From the IMG/VR virus record IMGVR_UViG_3300027608_000010: DNA of 64,000 nt, one strand, 5' to 3'. Source of the DNA: a virus. Lineage: Duplodnaviria; Caudoviricetes. Positions within the stretch are counted from its first letter, which is position 1. Each line of letters opens with the position of its first letter. This document shows, one piece after another, positions 1 through 33,640 of the stretch. The notes beneath the pieces were generated by a model. That model had not been told where the DNA came from. It worked only from the letters and a program-made list of their open reading frames with translations, and made no database searches. A program made the position numbers and the translations under genes.

Positions 1-3000
1 CAAGTTCTTCCTAATCCAGGACTTCCTAAATTATTACAAATTGGTATTGGATCTAGACCTAACCAAACAATGTTCATCGACAGAAGTACTGCATTAAAAA
101 ATTATTTACAGTATGCTAATAGAGTATTGAAAAACTATCCAATAAGTGAACTACCTAACTTGAATTTTTTAAGTTTAGCTGGTGAAGATTATGATACAAC
201 TTTGTTTTGGGACTACGTATATTGGTGGGCTGACGGTTACTCAGATAATGTTAAGACTATATTTGAGGTTGATGCTTACTATGACTTAGTAAAAGAGACG
301 GTAAAAGAGGGCACAATCGTAGGTGTTTCTAAAAATAGTCAAGGTAAACGTGAAGTCTATAAATTTACTTCAGGTGTTTGGGAACGTATTGGAGTTGAGG
401 ATGGAACGATTGAATTCTCATCTAAGTTATGGAATCCTGTCGGTGATAATATTGGATACGGAGATGATTTCTTTGATGTATCATCGTTTGATGCATATCC
501 TGCAGTTGAAACAAAAAATATAATACGAGCATTAAATGAGCAGATTTATACAGGTGAACTTGCTGAACATAGAAATAAAAGTCTAATATTAATGTTTGAA
601 TACATTCAAAGTGAAAATGTTAACTCTAACAATTATCTACCTTGGTTAACTAAAACTAGTTTAGCTGATGTTAGTTATAAAATACGAGAATTAAAACCAT
701 ACCAAAAATACCAAAATGAAAATACTAATTTGTTAGAAGGGTTTATTAACGAGATAAAACCATATCATACCGTATTAAAAGAATTCTACTTCACATATTC
801 AGGAACTGAATCTTATGAAATGAGTATGACTGACTTTGACTTACCTGCAACATTTAGTTCCTTCACTTCTAGATATGAGTCACCTAAACTAAAATATGTT
901 AATGTTAACACAGAAGCAGATATAGTATCTACGGACACTATTTGGTCAACAAACACTGAATATAATTTATGGTATAATAATTTTGGATTAGAATTAGAGT
1001 CTAAAGAAAATCAACAAATTGGTGTAGTTAGTAAATATTTGGGAACAACATCAACTGAAATTTTCTTAGAAAATGCTCGAGGAGTTCCGGTTACCGGACT
1101 AATTAAAATCAACGATGAATTAATTCGTTATACTCAAGTTGATAGAGAACAGAAACGTTTATATGGGTTGAGTAGAGGAGTAGACAACACTATAGTTACC
1201 GAGCATTACCCAAAGACTATAGTTTATTCTGATTCTTCTGGAGTTGTTGTTGTCTCTTCTGGTAGAGGTTATGTTGACCCTCCCATAGTTAAAGCATATA
1301 TTGATACTTCAAAATATCCAGCACCTAGAAAAGAAGCAGTATTGCGCTCAGTGCTAGTTGATGATAAGGTGGTTGAGGTTCAAATCATTGATCCGGGTGA
1401 TGGGTACGTAGTAACCCCAGAGATAATATTTGATCCAGCCTTTTCAATTACATTTGACGGCACGCAACTAAACTATCAGTCTAATTTGTTAGTGATAGAA
1501 TCAGATGATTTAAGAACTGGTGATCAAATCAAGATTACATCTAATTCAAATCAATTTGAAGCAATACAACCCGGGTATTATTATGCAAGAGTGTTAGGAT
1601 TTAACACTAGATTATTGACAGCGGCTAAACCGGTCGTTTCTTTGCACTATCGATATTTGGATTCTATTTCCGGAGAATATAAAGTTGTCTTTAAGATTAA
1701 TAAATTGAATTTACCACTAAGCTATACTCTTGCTATGGTACCTAAAGTGGTTGTTAAAACTAAAAATTCAAAATCTCGACAACTTAATTCTAAATTAAGA
1801 TTTGATAGAACAAGTTATAATTCATTTATTGTACCTTGGGAATCAGGAATCTTTTGGCCAAGTAGTTTTAATAGTTTGGGTAATGATGCAAGCTCAAACG
1901 TTCCAATTAGTGTCAGCACAGAATATAAATTTGATCAAACTTTAGCAATACTTGATGGGACAATTTCAGTTGCCAGTAGTACTGGGGAGGGTTTCAAATT
2001 CAGTGTATTCAATCAAAAAGCATATGGAACTTATTATGTGACTATAACTTCCCCCGGTGTTGCATTCAGAGTCGGAGACACTATTACCATTACCGGTGAT
2101 TATTTAGGAGGTGAAACTCCTGAAAACGATATTGTAATTACTGTAACAGAATTGACAACCGGCGGAGTTAGTAGTCCGATAAATAAAGTATCATTTGTTG
2201 GTACTCCTTTTGTCTCGTCTACAATTGATGTAAATGAAGAAAATATTCAAGATGTTGTGCTTACCGCTAGTTTACAAGGTGCAGTAATACCTATAGTTAG
2301 TGCCAGTGCAGATTCAGATGAGACTACTATCATTCAAGTTAACTATTTACCAAGCACATTGAGACCCGGACAGCTTAAAGGATTAAAAGCATATTTTTAT
2401 AGAAATTTAGCACCTTATACATATAATGATACCGGTGCAAACTTTAAAGCAACGGTTGCAATTGGTAGTACATCAACTTTCACAGGCACGATTTCAGGAA
2501 CAACACTAACAGTAACAACAGGTCCTGTAGGTACTGGAATTTCAATAGGTGACATTTTAACTGGTGGCTCAATTGCATCTGATATCTATATTGTTAGAAA
2601 CTTAACCGGTACTAGCACAAGTACAAATAGTTCATGGACTATAAATTCATCGATTACACAAGTCACTACTGTTACATTTACAGTAACTCCTGTAACAATG
2701 ACAGTCACTGAAGTCACGCACGGTAAACTAAGTGCAGGACAGACACTATATGGTACTGGAGTTACTTCAGGAACTAAAATAGCTTTACCAGTAACCGGTA
2801 CTATAGGTGGTACGGGCTCTTACAAATTAACTAAAGCACAAACAGTATCGGCTTCAACAAGCATACAAACAAATGGTGGTGCAATTCTTGAAATTCATAG
2901 ACCAAACTTTGATCCGCTAGTTCTTATTAATAGATACTATCTAAAAATAGTTGATTCAGGTTCTATTTACAAAGACGGGGATACGGTTATTATTCCGGGA

Positions 3001-23227: not shown

Positions 23228-23344
23228 ATGAGAAACTTATTTCAAACACTATATTATAATACAATTGGAAAATTAGTTAGAGAATACAAGTATAGAAAAC
23301 GATTAAAAGAGTTACGTAAACGAGATCCATTTATCTACAAATGA
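23228..23344 (+). CDS. Small basic 38-aa protein (not in ORF track)
   Basis: MRNLFQTLYYNTIGKLVREYKYRKRLKELRKRDPFIYK*; its stop overlaps the ATG of the carbamoyltransferase (ATGA). Confidence 0.6.
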   Translation: MRNLFQTLYYNTIGKLVREYKYRKRLKELRKRDPFIYK

Positions 23345-24864
23345 ATATACTAGGAATCAGTGCCGGCTTTCATGACGCTGCCATCTCAGTTGTTAACACC
23401 CAAGGTGATATACTGTTTGCCGGCCACAGCGAACGCTACAGCAAGATAAAAAACGATGCACACATCAGCGCAGGCTTGATTGAAGAAATCTTCGGATTTG
23501 ATATTGATACCATTGCCTACTATGAACGACCCTGGGCCAAACAACTGCGTAGGCTTTACAGTGGCGAAGGTGTGCAATGGGGAGCCCTGACTGTAGAGCA
23601 ATGCTTACAAAGAGAACTCGGCGATCATCTAAAAATTTCCAGAGAACAAAACATCACGGATCCTCTGCATCCTGCTACAAATCTAAGAACCAGATCCTTC
23701 AATCACCATCTTAGTCATGCAGCCGGTGGATTTCAAACAAGTCCGTATGATCGTGCTACAGTTGTTGTGATTGATGCCATAGGTGAGTGGGATACGATAT
23801 CGATCTGGGGAGCCGAGTATGACAAGAGAGGCCGAGCACAGTATAAGAGATTGTGGACACAGCGCTATCCTCACAGCCTAGGTTTGTTTTATAGTGCAAT
23901 TACTAAGCGTGTGGGCCTACACCCATTAGACGAAGAATACATTACTATGGGCATGGCTGCTTATGGTGATGACCATTACCATGATCTTATGGAGGCAGTA
24001 TTGATCAGCGATGCAGACTCCATAGAATTCAAACAAAACTTGCACATAGGCGTTAGTGATAAATTCATGGACGGACTGGATCACATGGATATCGCTGCCA
24101 GTGCTCAACGGTTGTTACAACGACTAATAGGTAATGTCATGCGTAGAGCCAGGGATTTTAAGTGGTCAACCAATCTTGTGTATCAGGGTGGTGTTGCACT
24201 CAACTGTCTGGCCAATAGACAACTAGGAAGATTTTTTGAAAATATTTGGATTATGCCTTGCCCCGGTGATGCTGGCAGTAGTCTTGGCGCTGCTGCTCTT
24301 GCTCATGGTGGCAGGATTAATTGGACTACTGCTTTCTTGGGTCATGCTATACCCGGTAACTATCCCGTTAATGATGCTCTTAATCATCTCATTACTAATA
24401 GTATTGTTGGTGTAGCAAGTGGGCGTGCAGAATTTGGCCCAAGAGCATTGGGAAATAGAAGCCTACTTGCAGACCCAAGAGGAAAAGAAATAAAGGACCA
24501 AGTAAATGCAATCAAACGCAGACAAAAGTTTCGACCCTTTGCCCCTGTTATACTGGCTGAACTGGCTGATGACTATTTTGATATCAAGCCCGGCTGGCAT
24601 ACTCACAGTTATATGCAGTCAGTCGCTAGTTGCCGCGATCCTAATCTTTACCCTGCTATATGTCATGTTGATGGCACCAGTAGAGTACAAACGGTGGCAA
24701 AGGATGGATCAGGTATAAGACAGTTGTTAGAAGCCTGGTATGCACAAACAGGTTGCCCAATGTTATTGAACACTAGTCTTAACATACGCGGTGAACCCAT
24801 GGTAAATGATAGAACTGATGCTGATAGATTTCAGAATTTATACAATGTACAGGTCTTTTCGTGA
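23341..24864 (+). CDS. O-carbamoyltransferase (NodU/CmcH family)
   Basis: 'ILGIS..FHDAA', 'HHLSHAA', 'VIDAIGE', 'GGVALN', 'EFGPRALGNRSLLADPR', 'RPFAP', 'LLNTSLN'. Confidence 0.92.
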   Translation: MNILGISAGFHDAAISVVNTQGDILFAGHSERYSKIKNDAHISAGLIEEIFGFDIDTIAYYERPWAKQLRRLYSGEGVQWGALTVEQCLQRELGDHLKISREQNITDPLHPATNLRTRSFNHHLSHAAGGFQTSPYDRATVVVIDAIGEWDTISIWGAEYDKRGRAQYKRLWTQRYPHSLGLFYSAITKRVGLHPLDEEYITMGMAAYGDDHYHDLMEAVLISDADSIEFKQNLHIGVSDKFMDGLDHMDIAASAQRLLQRLIGNVMRRARDFKWSTNLVYQGGVALNCLANRQLGRFFENIWIMPCPGDAGSSLGAAALAHGGRINWTTAFLGHAIPGNYPVNDALNHLITNSIVGVASGRAEFGPRALGNRSLLADPRGKEIKDQVNAIKRRQKFRPFAPVILAELADDYFDIKPGWHTHSYMQSVASCRDPNLYPAICHVDGTSRVQTVAKDGSGIRQLLEAWYAQTGCPMLLNTSLNIRGEPMVNDRTDADRFQNLYNVQVFS

Positions 24865-27571: not shown

Positions 27572-28326
27572 GTGATGAAAAAATAACATTATTTGCGAAC
27601 GGATGTAGTCATACAGCTGGTTCTGAAATAGAACATGAGTACCAAGGATATTGTTATCATAAAGCCTGGCCCCGCTGGTTAGCAGATGATAAAAATTGGA
27701 ATTGGGTTAATAAAGCGGAACCAGGCGGAAGTAATGAGGGAATTAGTAGAAGTACTATTGAATGGATTACTCAGAATGTGGTTATTGAAAAAAAATATAA
27801 TCATACTAATTTAATAGTAATGATTCTGTGGTCGGGCTTTAATAGATTTGAAGTATGGAATCCCGGAGACGGTAAATTTATATCAGTCTCAGGTATTAGT
27901 ACTGATGAAGCACCAGATATAATGGAATATATTAAGTTAAGAACAATAATAGATTTGTCCCCGGTAACTGAATATAAAAATCTATTGGATATGTACCTTA
28001 CTGCAATATTCTTAGAATCACTGAATATTAAATATTATTTTGCTAATGCATTGTACGATTGGCCAACAGTGGAAGAATTCACCGGTAACAAATGGTTATC
28101 TGACCGGTATGAAATAATTTATAAAGCATATGGAGATAGAAGACACCGACATTTAGGATTTACTGATCCAAAAGAACGTTTTGGGGAATACTTAACACAG
28201 TACCCACTTAGTCCGTATGCACGGTTCGGTCATTGGGGAGTAGATGGTCATCAAAAATGGAAAGATTACTTATTACAATGGATGAGTCAATTAGATAATC
28301 CGATAGATATCATCCAAAATAATTGA
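27568..28326 (+). CDS. SGNH/GDSL hydrolase-like protein
   Basis: 'ANGCSHTAG', 'GGSN', C-terminal 'GHWGVDGH'. Confidence 0.55.
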   Translation: MSDEKITLFANGCSHTAGSEIEHEYQGYCYHKAWPRWLADDKNWNWVNKAEPGGSNEGISRSTIEWITQNVVIEKKYNHTNLIVMILWSGFNRFEVWNPGDGKFISVSGISTDEAPDIMEYIKLRTIIDLSPVTEYKNLLDMYLTAIFLESLNIKYYFANALYDWPTVEEFTGNKWLSDRYEIIYKAYGDRRHRHLGFTDPKERFGEYLTQYPLSPYARFGHWGVDGHQKWKDYLLQWMSQLDNPIDIIQNN

Positions 28327-28351
28327 CAACAAAGCTGAATAAATATATACT
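28323..28351 (+). promoter_or_regulatory. Sigma70-type early promoter with embedded ATAAATA
   Basis: TTGACA(28323)-17 nt-TATACT(28346). Confidence 0.75.
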
Positions 28352-28427
28352 GTAAGTTATTGCTGTATGAAGTACAAGAGTAAGGTTTTATGTTTGAAAA
28401 AGTCTTTTATGAAATTTAGGAGTAATT

Positions 28428-28820
28428 ATGAAAAAAGTATTATTTGGATTAATGTTAGTATCTAGTATATCTTATGCACAAGATGTATATGTGATTAGTA
28501 GTCAGCCTAGATTTGTGACAATGCAACAACAGCAATGCCGCACGGTATCACAATATGAAGATAACAGTGGAGTCGGTACTGTAATTGGTGCAATCGCAGG
28601 TGGTGTCATTGGACATCAAATCGGCGGCGGCTTTGGTCGTGATGTAGCAACAGTATTAGGCACTGGTATAGGTGCTTCAGTTGGTCAACGTATTGGCCAG
28701 GATCAACGCCAAGTTGTAAACAAACAAGTTTGTGATTTAGTGCCCGTCACTATACAACAAGGTGAAGTTGTAACATTTAATTACAAAGGACGAGTGTTTA
28801 CACAAGTTTTTGGTAATTGA
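28428..28820 (+). CDS. Glycine-zipper (2TM) exported protein, YcfJ-like
   Basis: Signal peptide and 'GTVIGAIAGGVIGHQIGGGFGRDVATVLGTGIGASVG'. Confidence 0.8.
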   Translation: MKKVLFGLMLVSSISYAQDVYVISSQPRFVTMQQQQCRTVSQYEDNSGVGTVIGAIAGGVIGHQIGGGFGRDVATVLGTGIGASVGQRIGQDQRQVVNKQVCDLVPVTIQQGEVVTFNYKGRVFTQVFGN

Positions 28821-28832
28821 TTTAAGATTTTT

Positions 28833-28934
28833 ATGTTTGAAAATTGGCATTGGGTTTATATGTGGGGCATCTTAGTTATAGTCAACTATATGTTCTGGAT
28901 AGTAAAAAATCTTTTTGACAGTGTGAAAGAGTAA
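28833..28934 (+). CDS. Small 33-aa membrane peptide (not in ORF track)
   Basis: MFENWHWVYMWGILVIVNYMFWIVKNLFDSVKE*, with one hydrophobic helix. Confidence 0.45.
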   Translation: MFENWHWVYMWGILVIVNYMFWIVKNLFDSVKE

Positions 28935-29218
28935 GAACAGCGTAAACCTGCTGAGGAAACACTGGCGACACGGGAGTTCAATTCTCCCCACCTCCACCAA
29001 AAGCACATTCGGTATGCACATAGCATACAGAGACATTAGAAACATGATTGTGCTTTTGATGGGGGTGACATGGGATCGACCGACAGGATAGTACAAAGAT
29101 TAGGCGCTCATCAGAGTAGATGTTAAAACTAAACAAAAGTAACCGCAAACGACTCACAGTTCGCATTAGCAGCCTAAACACTGCTTAGGGTAAGACATAC
29201 CTCGTAACAGAAAATCAG
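28935..29218 (+). ncRNA. ssrA: Circularly permuted (two-piece) tmRNA: acceptor piece ~28935-28999, intervening segment 29000-29060, coding piece 29061-~29218
   Basis: T-arm GGGAG-TTCAATT-CTCCC and CACCTCC-A-CCA (to 28999) lie upstream of the 5' strand GGGGGTG (29061). They pair 7/7 with G3.U70. Tag frame 29145-29177 = ANDSQFALAA*. Outer ends are approximate. Confidence 0.92.
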
Positions 29219-29241
29219 AAAAGGCTCTTCGGAGCCTTTTT
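29219..29241 (+). terminator. Rho-independent terminator after tmRNA
   Basis: AAAAGGCTC-TTCG-GAGCCTTTTT. Confidence 0.85.
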
Positions 29242-29357
29242 CTCTAAGTGTTTACACTTAGTAAGAACAATGAATTTCACTATGTTATTTTTGATTTTTC
29301 CGTGTATAATAGTGATACATACTATGACAGTATGTCAAACTTAACCAGGAGAAAACT

Positions 29358-29429
29358 ATGTGGACAAAACCAACAGCATCTGATATGCGTTTCGGTTTCG
29401 AAATCACGATGTATATTGCCAACCGCTGA
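29358..29429 (+). CDS. pqqA: PQQ precursor peptide PqqA (23 aa; not in ORF track)
   Basis: [23 protein letters not shown] has the PqqA E-x-x-x-Y core (EITMY) and W-x-x-P leader. AGGAGA RBS at 29347, TATAAT at 29305, own terminator. Confidence 0.92.
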
Positions 29430-29446
29430 TATACATTGAAATCAAG

Positions 29447-29472
29447 AAAAGGGCACTAGTTGCCCTTTTTTC
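29447..29472 (+). terminator. Rho-independent terminator after pqqA
   Basis: AAAAGGGCA-CTAGT-TGCCCTTTTTTT. Confidence 0.8.
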
Positions 29473-32536: not shown

Positions 32537-33640
32537 ATGGCATCTCATGTAAGTGACAATCACACTATCACTAGTGTGCAAACCCGTAAAGCAATTCTAA
32601 GTGCTTTCAAAACTAAACGTCCCGTTTTCTTGTGGGGCCCTCCCGGTATCGGTAAGTCTGATGTAGTTCAGGAAATTGCTACTGAATTAGAAGGTCATGT
32701 TATTGACTTGCGTATGGCGCAAATGGAACCCACTGACATTCGCGGTATTCCCTTCTACAATAAAGATATCAACAAGATGGATTGGGCTCACCCAGTTGAT
32801 TTGCCTGATGAAGAATTTGCAAAACAATTCCCTATCGTTGTATTGTTCTTAGATGAAATGAACAGTGCATCACCCTCTGTACAAGCCGCAGGCTATCAGT
32901 TGATTCTGAATCGCCGAGTTGGTAAATATAAACTTCCCGATAACGTTGCTATCGTAGCGGCAGGTAATCGTGATAGCGACAAGGGTGTTACATATCGCAT
33001 GCCAATGCCCCTTGCTAATCGTTTCATTCACTTAGAAATGCGCCCTGACTTTAATTCATGGCAGACATGGGCTGTGAAAAACAACATTCACAAAGACGTT
33101 GTTGGTTACTTGTCATTCGCAAAACAAGATATGTATGACTTTGATGCTAAATCGTCAAGCCGTGCATTCGCAACACCTCGTAGTTGGTGTTTCGTTAGTG
33201 ACTTGTTGAAAGATGAGGACAACATGGATACTGACACACAATTCAATTTGATTGCAGGCGCTGTCGGTGAAGGTCTTGCTGTTAAGTTTACAGCACACCG
33301 CAAAATCTCAGGTAAAATGCCTGAACCCTCTGACATTCTTTCAGGTAAAGTGAAAGACTTGTCTGTAAAAGAAATTAGTGCTATGTATGCATTGACTGTT
33401 GGTATGTGCTATGAATTGAAAGATGCAGTAGAACAGAAAAAGGTCAAACCAAAAGAGTTCCACGAAATGTCACAGAATTTCTTTGACTACATGATGAACA
33501 ATTTTGAAACTGAATTGGTTGTGATGGGTGCAAAGATTGCATTGAAAACATATGAACTGCCCATCGAACCTAGTCAGTTGAAAAACTTCGATGAGTTCCA
33601 CAAGAAGTACGGCAAGTACATTGTAGAAGCCGGTAACTAA
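32537..33640 (+). CDS. MoxR-like AAA+ ATPase
   Basis: Walker A 'GPPGIGKS', Walker B 'LFLDEMN', 'AAGN', 'ANRF', 'TPRSW'. Confidence 0.88.
   Translation: MASHVSDNHTITSVQTRKAILSAFKTKRPVFLWGPPGIGKSDVVQEIATELEGHVIDLRMAQMEPTDIRGIPFYNKDINKMDWAHPVDLPDEEFAKQFPIVVLFLDEMNSASPSVQAAGYQLILNRRVGKYKLPDNVAIVAAGNRDSDKGVTYRMPMPLANRFIHLEMRPDFNSWQTWAVKNNIHKDVVGYLSFAKQDMYDFDAKSSSRAFATPRSWCFVSDLLKDEDNMDTDTQFNLIAGAVGEGLAVKFTAHRKISGKMPEPSDILSGKVKDLSVKEISAMYALTVGMCYELKDAVEQKKVKPKEFHEMSQNFFDYMMNNFETELVVMGAKIALKTYELPIEPSQLKNFDEFHKKYGKYIVEAGN

What the first reader, a model, noticed from the sequence alone, without database searches (positions are those of the whole stretch)
28935..29241. Phage-encoded circularly permuted (two-piece) tmRNA
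Seen: the 3' acceptor half (T-arm, CACCTCC-A-CCA ending 28999) precedes the 5' half (GGGGGTG at 29061). The 61-nt spacer is closed by AAAAGCAC/GTGCTTTT. G3.U70 is intact. There is a pk1-like GCTC-ATC/GAGT-GAT element, the tag ANDSQFALAA*, a possible inter-piece helix (CCTCG..CAG with CTG..TGAGG) and a terminator. Established: two-piece tmRNAs are known from Alphaproteobacteria, some Betaproteobacteria and some Cyanobacteria, and phage tmRNAs exist. Inference: the permuted form in a phage is unusual and easily missed, and could sustain or redirect ribosome rescue during infection. No smpB is present in the window.
Basis: partly seen in the sequence, partly recalled or inferred. Interest (0 to 1): 0.8.

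Follow-up and report, generated by a model that had tools for sequence, protein, structure and literature searches.

The report
Two-piece tmRNA gene in jumbo phage
This large freshwater phage carries a real, intact "back-to-front" gene for tmRNA, the RNA that frees stalled ribosomes, but such genes are already published and common in aquatic phages, so it is an ordinary new example with an unusual local history.

Summary
Window 28935-29243 (+) is a circularly permuted tmRNA gene: Rfam beta_tmRNA 112.3 bits (cut-off 84) and tmRNA_permuted 88.6 bits (cut-off 47). It has a G3.U70 acceptor stem, an encoded CCA, a 61-nt stem-closed spacer, the tag ANDSQFALAA and a terminator.

The window is a T4-like jumbo phage (terminase, gp32-like SSB, UvsX, helicase). 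It has no smpB, and neither do four complete relatives that carry a tmRNA.

The gene is under selection. Against a sister contig about 90% identical, the mature pieces show 0 of 222 differences, the spacer 3 of 61, and the neighbouring pqqA 11 of 72.

It is not unusual. Phage two-piece tmRNAs are published (Melnitz, PMC9004378). At least 120 IMG/VR contigs match one acceptor-stem pattern. Cultured Stenotrophomonas phages carry an annotated beta-type copy. This scan has noted the same kind about 800 times on other DNA.

"Easily missed" is partly right, because default ARAGORN misses this gene.

One extra finding: the gene is a fast-evolved variant. In three relatives it sits behind an HNH endonuclease gene and a displaced 5' half of an older tmRNA gene. 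The window keeps only that older gene's promoter and 15 nt.

The parts
28323..28351 (+). Sigma-70-type promoter-like site (TTGACA, 17 nt, TATACT). It is the promoter of an older, displaced tmRNA gene and probably now drives the two inserted ORFs and the tmRNA.
   Evidence: The site matches 11 of 12 consensus positions. It is homologous to the promoter ahead of the displaced 5' half in L274. It has the same layout as promoters of canonical phage tmRNA genes. No terminator-like site lies between it and the tmRNA. That it is actually used is inferred.
28358..28372 (+). A 15-nt remnant (TATTGCTGTATGAAG) of the 5' end of a displaced canonical-type acceptor piece.
   Evidence: It is identical to the start of the canonical genes of L039 and L022, and to the longer remnants in L274, L278 and L279.
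28385..28934 (+). Inserted cargo between the old promoter and the live tmRNA. It holds a glycine-zipper membrane protein ORF (28428-28820) and a 33-aa hydrophobic ORF (28833-28934). It occupies the place of the HNH gene seen in relatives.
   Evidence: The larger ORF hits Pfam PF05433 at 36 bits. Direct repeats AAGAGTAAG (28376 and 28927) and TTTTATGTTTGAAAA (28386 and 28829) bracket the insert. L274 has an HNH ORF at the equivalent place.
28935..28999 (+). Acceptor piece, the 3' tRNA-like half. It holds the P2 strands (28939-42, 28947-48, 28962-67), the T-arm (28972-76 / 28984-88, loop UUCAAUU), the 3' acceptor strand (28989-95), discriminator A28996 and an encoded CCA (28997-99).
   Evidence: See the Rfam alignments and the pair table. 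The homology block shared with L274, L277, L278 and L279 starts at about 28933. There are 0 of 65 differences from L274.
29000..29060 (+). Intervening segment (spacer), removed on maturation. It has a long closing stem (28999-29011 with 29045-29057) and an inner hairpin (29012-17 / 23-28). The invariant UGAU lies just before the predicted RNase P site at 29060/29061.
   Evidence: The closing stem has many compensatory changes across 15 phage genes (columns 126-135 / 184-193) and within the subfamily. There are 3 of 61 differences from L274. Processing itself is inferred from knowledge of two-piece tmRNAs.
29061..29217 (+). Coding piece. It holds the 5' acceptor strand (29061-67, G29063.U28993), the UCGAC D-loop analogue, the P2 strands (29081-86, 29103-08), a hairpin in the place of PK1 (29109-12 / 29119-22), the resume codon GCA at 29145 preceded by U-5 A-4, the tag ORF 29145-29177 (ANDSQFALAA, stop TAA), a hairpin over the stop codon (29168-72 / 29181-85), and the conserved motif CCUCGUAACAGAA (29200-29212).
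   Evidence: There are 0 of 157 differences from L274.
29218..29243 (+). Intrinsic terminator: a 10-bp stem whose G+C-rich core GGCUC/GAGCC flanks a UUCG loop, followed by a U-run.
   Evidence: See the MFE fold and the Rfam 3' hairpin. The stem is kept with compensatory changes in L277 and L279. The simple scan listed this hairpin on the minus strand only, because its T-run is counted inside the stem.

Best explanation
Window 28935-29243 is a working gene for a two-piece (circularly permuted) tmRNA of the beta architecture, carried by an uncultured T4-like jumbo phage.

Shown here:
- The gene has all sequence features of a permuted tmRNA.
- It belongs to a large clade of phage-borne genes.
- It has been under strong purifying selection.

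Inferred mechanism:
- It is transcribed as one precursor, probably from the old early-type promoter at 28323-28351 through two small inserted ORFs, and ends at the terminator 29218-29243.
- Host RNase P cuts before G29061, and host 3' processing exposes the encoded CCA at 28999. This discards the 61-nt stem-closed spacer.
- The acceptor piece and the coding piece stay paired through the 7-bp acceptor stem and the P2 helices.
- Host AlaRS charges it by way of G3.U70 and A73. Host SmpB and EF-Tu deliver it to ribosomes stalled on broken mRNAs.
- Translation resumes at GCA 29145 and adds ANDSQFALAA, which marks the product for host ClpXP-type proteases.

Likely benefit to the phage: it keeps ribosome rescue running during a long infection in which host RNA synthesis is shut down and mRNA is being cut. 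The phage supplies the RNA and relies on the host's SmpB.
For: Identity:
- Rfam RF01850 scores 112.3 bits (cut-off 84) and RF04321 scores 88.6 bits (cut-off 47).
- ARAGORN -ps calls a permuted tmRNA with the tag ANDSQFALAA.
- The acceptor stem, G3.U70, A73, CCA, T-arm and UCGAC motif are all present.
- U-5 and A-4 before the resume codon are invariant in 15 relatives.

Structure: RNAalifold on 15 phage genes gives 58 pairs, and 32 of them have compensatory changes. These cover P2, the T-arm, the spacer stem and the 3' hairpin.

Selection:
- Against L274 there are 0 of 222 differences in the mature pieces, 3 of 61 in the spacer, 5 of 114 in the next intergenic stretch and 11 of 72 in pqqA.
- The tag appears to be read. 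Phage tags vary in the middle but almost all begin AND and end ALAA. The Leu codon alternates TTA/TTG while the peptide stays the same.

Phage context:
- The window encodes a large terminase (E 9e-108), a gp32-like SSB, UvsX, a helicase and ThyA.
- The closest terminases are those of jumbo phages Phosso, PA5oct and Atu_ph07.
- Synteny is kept in L274, L277 and L278.

Reliance on host SmpB:
- The window has no SmpB.
- Four phage genomes at 100% estimated completeness have none, yet each has exactly one permuted tmRNA.

Expression timing: canonical relatives have TTGAC(A/T), 17 nt, TATAAT directly upstream, which fits early transcription by host polymerase.
Against: - No expression, processing, charging or tagging data exist.
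- The window's gene lacks the promoter that sits directly upstream in relatives. L277 has TTGACT, 16 nt, TATAAT there; the window has GAAAGAGT where others have TAAATA. Its transcription and its 5' end are therefore uncertain.
- The 3' hairpin stem that covaries in canonical phage genes is not formed here. Rfam marks 4 of 6 of its pairs and 3 of 4 pairs of a middle helix as non-canonical.
- PK1 is only a 4-bp hairpin.
- ARAGORN scores the gene below its default threshold.
- The benefit to the phage is inference only.
Confidence: 0.8

Rival explanations
1. The gene is mainly selfish baggage. It is a variant tmRNA allele that spreads with a homing endonuclease gene and persists because it lies in the co-conversion tract, not because the phage needs it. 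The window would show the stage after the endonuclease gene was lost.
For: - In L274, L278 and L279 an HNH ORF (Pfam PF01844, 23.5 bits) lies between a displaced canonical 5' half, broken in the T-loop, and the variant gene.
- The window keeps only the old promoter and 15 nt of that half.
- The variant clade sits on a long branch (0.46) inside the phage clade.
- L112 and L116 also show nuclease-like ORFs next to duplicated tmRNA fragments.
Against: - There are 0 of 222 differences in the mature RNA against 4-15% in flanking DNA. That points to selection on the RNA itself.
- L277 carries the variant gene with its own strong promoter and no HNH gene.
- The window has lost the HNH gene but kept the tmRNA intact.
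- The two readings are not exclusive: a useful gene can also ride with a homing endonuclease.
Confidence: 0.08
2. The RNA acts as a decoy or inhibitor. It would soak up host SmpB or block host trans-translation rather than perform it, as proposed for the tag-less tRNA-like-domain RNA of mycobacteriophage DS6A.
For: - No phage smpB exists, so the RNA must compete for host SmpB.
- The middle helix and the 3' hairpin are degenerate here.
- The DS6A precedent is described in PMC4131195 and PMC11915505.
Against: - The tag frame is complete and conserved. It has a GCA resume codon, the U-5 A-4 context and the ALAA end that proteases read. A decoy needs none of these.
- The coding piece shows 0 of 157 differences from L274.
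Confidence: 0.06
3. The phage uses its own tmRNA for something other than general upkeep. Examples are tagging host proteins for breakdown to recycle amino acids, or countering host defences that cut mRNA or tRNA and stall ribosomes.
For: - Recycling was suggested for Melnitz (PMC9004378).
- According to earlier notes of this scan, the same genome carries a tRNA array. I did not check this.
- The gene is early-promoter-driven in relatives.
Against: The tag is a standard proteobacterial one with no special feature. Nothing in the locus links it to a defence or to a specific target.
Confidence: 0.05
4. The gene is not a phage gene: it is host DNA from a mis-assembly, or the attachment-site end of a prophage.
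For: tmRNA genes are common integration sites for islands and prophages (PMC4383910).
Against: - The gene lies mid-window between phage genes, nearly all on the + strand.
- The same gene in the same gene order occurs on three other contigs, including a 348.7-kb genome judged complete.
- The sequence clusters with phage genes, not with the five cellular beta-type genes found here.
- The gene is full length.
Confidence: 0.01

Closest known systems
Two-piece tmRNA of OM43 phage Melnitz and pelagimyophages (Buchholz et al. 2022, PMC9004378)
   Same: Both are circularly permuted ssrA genes carried by aquatic T4-like myophages. Both are placed behind an early-type promoter, and neither phage has an integrase. 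Ribosome-rescue upkeep is the proposed role in both.
   Different: Melnitz's gene is of the alphaproteobacterial type and is reported to be preceded by a glutamine riboswitch. The window's gene is beta type, and Rfam finds no riboswitch in the window. BLAST finds no similarity to any deposited phage.
Beta-type permuted ssrA of cultured Stenotrophomonas phages (Menderavirus; e.g. vB_SmaM_Bhz51, OR797040.1, ssrA 67979-68352)
   Same: Both match the same Rfam families; Bhz51 scores RF01850 92.1 bits and RF04321 118.5 bits. Both belong to the same phage-type lineage: Bhz51 is about 72% identical to the canonical phage gene of L025. Both are phage-borne.
   Different: The Bhz51 gene sits in a tRNA cluster of a 160-kb phage. 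The window's gene is a divergent sub-branch with changed 5' and 3' ends, and it gives no BLAST hit to these phages.
Cellular beta-type two-piece tmRNA (Rfam RF01850; Sharkady and Williams 2004, as cited in PMC9004378; that paper could not be opened here)
   Same: The order of parts, the acceptor stem GGGGGUG, the ANDxxFAxAA-type tag, a conserved 3' loop motif, and a second terminal hairpin are all shared.
   Different: - The sequence is distant. Cellular genes score at most 85 bits against the phage profile, where phage genes score 150-310.
- The spacer is 61 nt here, against about 30 nt in the Rfam model.
- A middle helix and the first 3' hairpin are not formed.
- Only 4 of 151 sampled genomes of the order have this type.
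tmRNA genes of huge phages (Al-Shayeb et al. 2020, PMC7162821)
   Same: Both are jumbo phages that carry translation-related genes, including tmRNA.
   Different: That study also lists phage SmpB. Here none is found in the window or in four complete relatives. That study used ARAGORN, which misses this gene at default settings.
Group I intron-interrupted tmRNA genes with homing endonuclease genes in the T-loop (PMC11915505)
   Same: In relatives L274, L278 and L279 the displaced tmRNA 5' half is broken in the T-loop and is followed by an HNH gene.
   Different: There is no group I intron match. Only about 22 and 65 non-coding bases flank the ORF. The broken copy is never completed; instead a whole second (variant) gene follows. 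The window itself has no HNH gene.
Mycobacteriophage DS6A tRNA-like-domain-only tmRNA (PMC4131195, PMC11915505)
   Same: It is a phage-borne tmRNA derivative that depends on host SmpB.
   Different: DS6A lacks a tag frame and is thought to inhibit host tmRNA. The window's gene has a complete, conserved tag frame.

Membership tests
tmRNA (SsrA), permuted / two-piece form | Covariance-model match above the curated threshold | tested here: met
   RF04321 scores 88.6 bits against a cut-off of 47. RF01850 scores 112.3 bits against a cut-off of 84.
tmRNA (SsrA), permuted / two-piece form | tRNA-like domain with a 7-bp acceptor stem, G3.U70, discriminator A, CCA and a T-arm | tested here: met
   28989-95 pairs with 29061-67, with U28993.G29063. 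A28996 is the discriminator and CCA is 28997-99. The T-arm is 28972-88. All of these are invariant in five subfamily members.
tmRNA (SsrA), permuted / two-piece form | Gene order permuted: the 3' tRNA-like half lies upstream of the 5' half, separated by an intervening segment | tested here: met
   CCA ends at 28999 and GGGGGTG starts at 29061. The 61-nt spacer has a covarying closing stem.
tmRNA (SsrA), permuted / two-piece form | Tag reading frame starting at an alanine resume codon, with the upstream U-5 A-4 context, ending in a protease-recognition tail | tested here: met
   The frame GCA 29145 to TAA 29177 encodes ANDSQFALAA. The TA at -5 and -4 is invariant in 15 relatives. ALAA ends are near-universal in the phage set.
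tmRNA (SsrA), permuted / two-piece form | Pseudoknot PK1 upstream of the resume codon | tested here: inconclusive
Only a 4-bp hairpin (29109-12 / 29119-22) is present; it covaries among relatives. No second stem was found. Relatives L277 and L278 carry a longer element at this place.
tmRNA (SsrA), permuted / two-piece form | Processing into two base-paired RNAs, charging with alanine, and tagging activity with SmpB | not testable with these tools
   This needs RNA and protein work in infected or heterologous cells.
Beta-type two-piece tmRNA (RF01850) as found in cells | All helices of the family model are formed | tested here: not met
   Three of four pairs of the middle helix and four of six pairs of the first 3' hairpin are non-canonical in the window. 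The remaining helices are formed. The gene therefore shares the architecture but is a divergent phage variant.
Phage clade of beta-like permuted tmRNAs | Groups with phage-borne genes rather than with cellular ones | tested here: met
   The window scores 224 bits against the phage profile, where cellular genes score at most 85. In the tree the five window-type genes form a clade (100/99) inside the phage cluster (99/98), next to L071. Caveat: only five cellular beta-type genes were available for comparison.
Group I intron-interrupted tmRNA | A group I intron core at the break in the T-loop | tested here: not met
   No intron family matched at E up to 1 in L274 1-2200. Too little non-coding sequence flanks the HNH ORF. 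The window has no insertion in its live gene.

The most novel reading that the evidence does not exclude
The window's tmRNA is one stage in a cycle of allele replacement driven by a homing endonuclease among jumbo phages.
- A fast-evolving variant tmRNA gene travels with an HNH gene.
- The cassette lands at the T-loop of a resident canonical phage tmRNA gene and leaves that gene's promoter and 5' half as a scar. This state is seen in L274, L278 and L279.
- The HNH gene is later lost and replaced by other small genes. This is the window's state.

If so, tmRNA genes would be a recurrent homing target in phages, and the resident promoter would be reused to drive the incoming genes.
Probability: 0.35. 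Interest if true: 0.5.

Novelty: new member of a known kind. Interest (0 to 1): 0.3.

Why it matters
As a phage two-piece tmRNA, this adds little. The kind is published, is present in cultured and annotated phages, is abundant in viral metagenomes, and has been noted by this scan hundreds of times.

Three points have modest value:
- Beta-like permuted tmRNAs of phages form their own lineage. It is far from the few cellular genes sampled and also occurs in cultured Stenotrophomonas phages, so the tmRNA type may be a poor guide to the host.
- Four complete phage genomes carry the RNA without SmpB. The phage RNA must therefore work with foreign SmpB proteins, which is a testable case of partner tolerance.
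- The locus records turnover of tmRNA alleles next to a homing endonuclease gene, a behaviour I did not find described for tmRNA genes outside intron-bearing forms.

Surveys that rely on default ARAGORN undercount these genes: 25 of 88 were missed here.

Tried and rejected
It is not conserved. Only the simple hairpin is supported.
CCUCGUAACAG is the invariant loop of a covarying 3' hairpin in canonical relatives, which have no GAGG partner. Within the subfamily the only variable pair goes G-C to U.C or U.U. MFE cofolding did not recover the helix. It is neither supported nor excluded.
- **Group I intron in the relatives' broken copy.** No Rfam match was found.
- **Fresh capture from a host.** The tree nests the window's gene inside the phage clade. 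BLAST to cellular beta-type genes finds only the T-arm.
- **Host identification.**
  - The genome contigs pattern was too loose and mostly hit unrelated high-GC genomes.
  - A 23-aa PqqA query found nothing useful in five genomes.
  - A Methylophilaceae host is only suggested, by GC of about 36%, by pqqA, and by the Lake Baikal report of similar phages (PMC7678222).
- **Own genome.** It is not held. The 348.7-kb contig L278/L287 is a relative, not the same phage.
- **Sharkady and Williams 2004.** The paper could not be opened.
- **tmRNA-database supplements.** They held no usable taxon table.

The 151-genome tally includes one unpublished genome (G028).

Full report
**What is there**

- The T-arm is 28972-28988.
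- The 3' acceptor strand, discriminator A and an encoded CCA end at 28999.
- A 61-nt spacer follows (29000-29060).
- The 5' acceptor strand GGGGGTG starts at 29061.
- The frame GCA..TAA at 29145-29177 encodes ANDSQFALAA.
- A G+C-rich hairpin followed by a T-run lies at 29218-29243.

Rfam places the gene well above threshold in two families. beta_tmRNA (RF01850) scores 112.3 bits against a cut-off of 84 (E 2.4e-33). tmRNA_permuted (RF04321) scores 88.6 bits against 47 (E 1.2e-15). ARAGORN finds nothing at default settings. With thresholds lowered by 5% it reports a permuted tmRNA at 28906-29268 with the same tag.

**Context**

No whole genome is held for the window. The window is phage DNA. Nearly all ORFs are on one strand and GC is 30-43%. 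It encodes a large terminase (E 9e-108), a gp32-like single-strand-binding protein, UvsX, a replicative helicase and thymidylate synthase. The nearest cultured terminases, at 48-52% amino-acid identity, belong to jumbo phages Phosso, PA5oct and Atu_ph07. Earlier notes of this scan call the genome an uncultured lake T4-like jumbo phage; my results agree. An SmpB profile built from five bacterial genes finds nothing in any of the six frames (best E 0.97).

**Relatives and structure**

- All 19 loci tested with Rfam matched tmRNA_permuted. Fifteen were beta type and two were alpha type.
- A profile of 15 of these genes hits 88 of 121 viral loci.
- RNAalifold on the 15 genes gives 58 pairs, 32 of them with compensatory changes. 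These cover the two P2 helices, the T-arm, a 10-bp stem that closes the spacer, and a 3' hairpin.
- The hairpin in the place of PK1 is not in that consensus fold. It covaries on inspection of the alignment: CAUC/GAUG, CGUC/GACG, CGAC/GUCG and CGAG/CUCG.
- The bases U-5 and A-4 before the resume codon, and UGAU before the 5' end of the coding piece, are invariant.
- Canonical members have TTGAC(A/T), 17 nt, TATAAT directly upstream.

**The window's own subfamily**

Exact-pattern scans found four more members.
- L274 is a 46.9-kb contig.
- L275/L277 is a 35.6-kb contig.
- L278/L287 is a 348.7-kb contig estimated at 100% complete.
- L279 is a 1-kb contig.

The first three are from the same metagenome.

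These members share a changed 5' half (CAGCGUAAACCUGCU..) and a matching change in its P2 partner (GGCGCU). They lack the stem of the first 3' hairpin and carry a separate terminator hairpin.

In a maximum-likelihood tree the five form a clade (100/99) on a long branch inside the phage cluster (99/98), next to L071. They lie apart from the five cellular beta-type genes that could be sampled. Only 4 of 151 genomes sampled from the order of a Methyloversatilis genome have the beta type at all.

**Selection**

L274 is about 90% identical to the window around the gene. Differences by segment are as follows:
- acceptor piece: 0 of 65
- coding piece: 0 of 157
- spacer: 3 of 61
- terminator loop: 1
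- next intergenic stretch: 5 of 114
- pqqA: 11 of 72

Phage tags differ in the middle but keep AND at the start and ALAA at the end. Synonymous TTA/TTG changes occur without a change of peptide. The mature RNA and its tag frame are therefore constrained.

**Dependence on host SmpB**

Four phage genomes estimated at 100% complete (170, 171, 160 and 349 kb) each have exactly one permuted tmRNA and no SmpB match. The same search found SmpB in 10 of 14 control genomes.

- The GCUC/GAGU 'pk1' pairing is not kept in L279 or in canonical genes.
- The proposed inter-piece helix pairs GAGG (28953-56) with CCUC (29200-03). CCUCGUAACAG is an invariant hairpin loop in relatives that have no GAGG. Within the subfamily the one variable position gives G-C, U.C or U.U.

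**Local history**

- In L274, L278 and L279 a sigma-70-type promoter is followed by a canonical acceptor-piece 5' half that stops in the T-loop.
- Next comes an HNH ORF (Pfam PF01844 at 23.5 bits in L274, 21.1 in L278).
- The variant gene follows immediately after.
- Rfam finds no group I intron.
- L277 has the variant gene with its own TTGACT, 16 nt, TATAAT promoter and neither the HNH gene nor the remnant.
- The window keeps the old promoter (28323-28351, 11 of 12 matches) and only 15 nt of the old gene (28358-28372). Then follow a glycine-zipper protein ORF and a 33-aa ORF, bracketed by short direct repeats.
- I read this as an endonuclease-associated replacement of a resident tmRNA allele, followed in the window by loss of the endonuclease gene. 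The direction of events is not settled.
- L112 and L116 show similar nuclease-like ORFs beside duplicated tmRNA fragments.

**What is known already**

- Buchholz et al. 2022 described the two-piece ssrA of OM43 phage Melnitz. They counted 53 two-piece forms among 133 unique phage tmRNAs, 50 of them aquatic (PMC9004378).
- Huge phages with tmRNA and SmpB were reported in 2020 (PMC7162821).
- The 2025 tmRNA database lists 79 phage sequences (PMC11915505).
- Cultured Stenotrophomonas phages carry a beta-type permuted gene that is annotated as ssrA in GenBank.
- This scan has about 800 notes on such genes in other genomes, including freshwater beta-type ones judged ordinary.

**Verdict**

The gene is real, very probably functional, and an ordinary new member of a known kind. 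Interest is low to moderate. The endonuclease-linked allele turnover is the only part that may be new.

Noticed in passing
window 29358-29429 (+), with TGTATAAT at 29304-29311 and a terminator hairpin at 29447-29469: A stand-alone 23-codon pqqA gene (PQQ precursor peptide) lies 115 nt after the tmRNA terminator. It hits Pfam PF08042 at 40.2 bits against a cut-off of 21.1. L274 has the same gene with 3 amino-acid changes. No pqqB-E genes were seen in the ORFs I annotated. Phage pqqA has been reported in Lake Baikal T4-like phages (35% GC) predicted to infect Methylophilaceae (PMC7678222), which hints at the host.
   Followed up: partly
L274 481-1085; L278 5383-6110 (-); L279 about 470-1060 (-): An HNH endonuclease ORF lies between a displaced canonical tmRNA 5' half (with its promoter, broken in the T-loop at GTGCRR) and the live variant tmRNA gene. 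The junction sequence is the same in three contigs.
   Followed up: partly
L112 5327-6483; L116 1129-1924: Other IMG/VR contigs show a nuclease-like ORF beside duplicated tmRNA fragments. In L112 an HNH-like ORF lies between two partial copies. In L116 a GIY-YIG-like ORF lies beside a repeated 3' fragment. The nuclease calls are by eye only.
   Followed up: no
window 28376-28400, 28829-28843, 28927-28939, 29247-29269: Short exact direct repeats bracket the inserted ORFs and the tmRNA module: AAGAGTAAG, TTTTATGTTTGAAAA, AGTAAGAACA and AGTGTTTACAC. They may mark recombination joints of small mobile cassettes.
   Followed up: partly
L242 / L131 (Oxalobacteraceae MAG contig JAYVMW010000004.1): This bacterial MAG contig carries a weak beta-type permuted tmRNA (86.3 bits) that falls on a long branch inside the phage cluster in the tree. 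It may be a prophage, a phage-derived copy, or a binning error.
   Followed up: no
window 29011-29029 and the same place in L088 and L092: The spacer's inner hairpin (GGUAUGC..GCAUAC) is kept with compensatory changes in L088 and L092. Their spacers are otherwise about 85% identical to the window's, although the rest of those genes belongs to the canonical type. This suggests exchange of modules between tmRNA lineages. The long and short forms of the PK1 region are also shared across lineages.
   Followed up: no
window 23341-24864 and 32537-33640: The carbamoyltransferase gene and the MoxR-like ATPase gene near the tmRNA recur next to permuted tmRNA genes on several other IMG/VR contigs: L103, L009, L035, L084, L059 and L032.
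   Followed up: no
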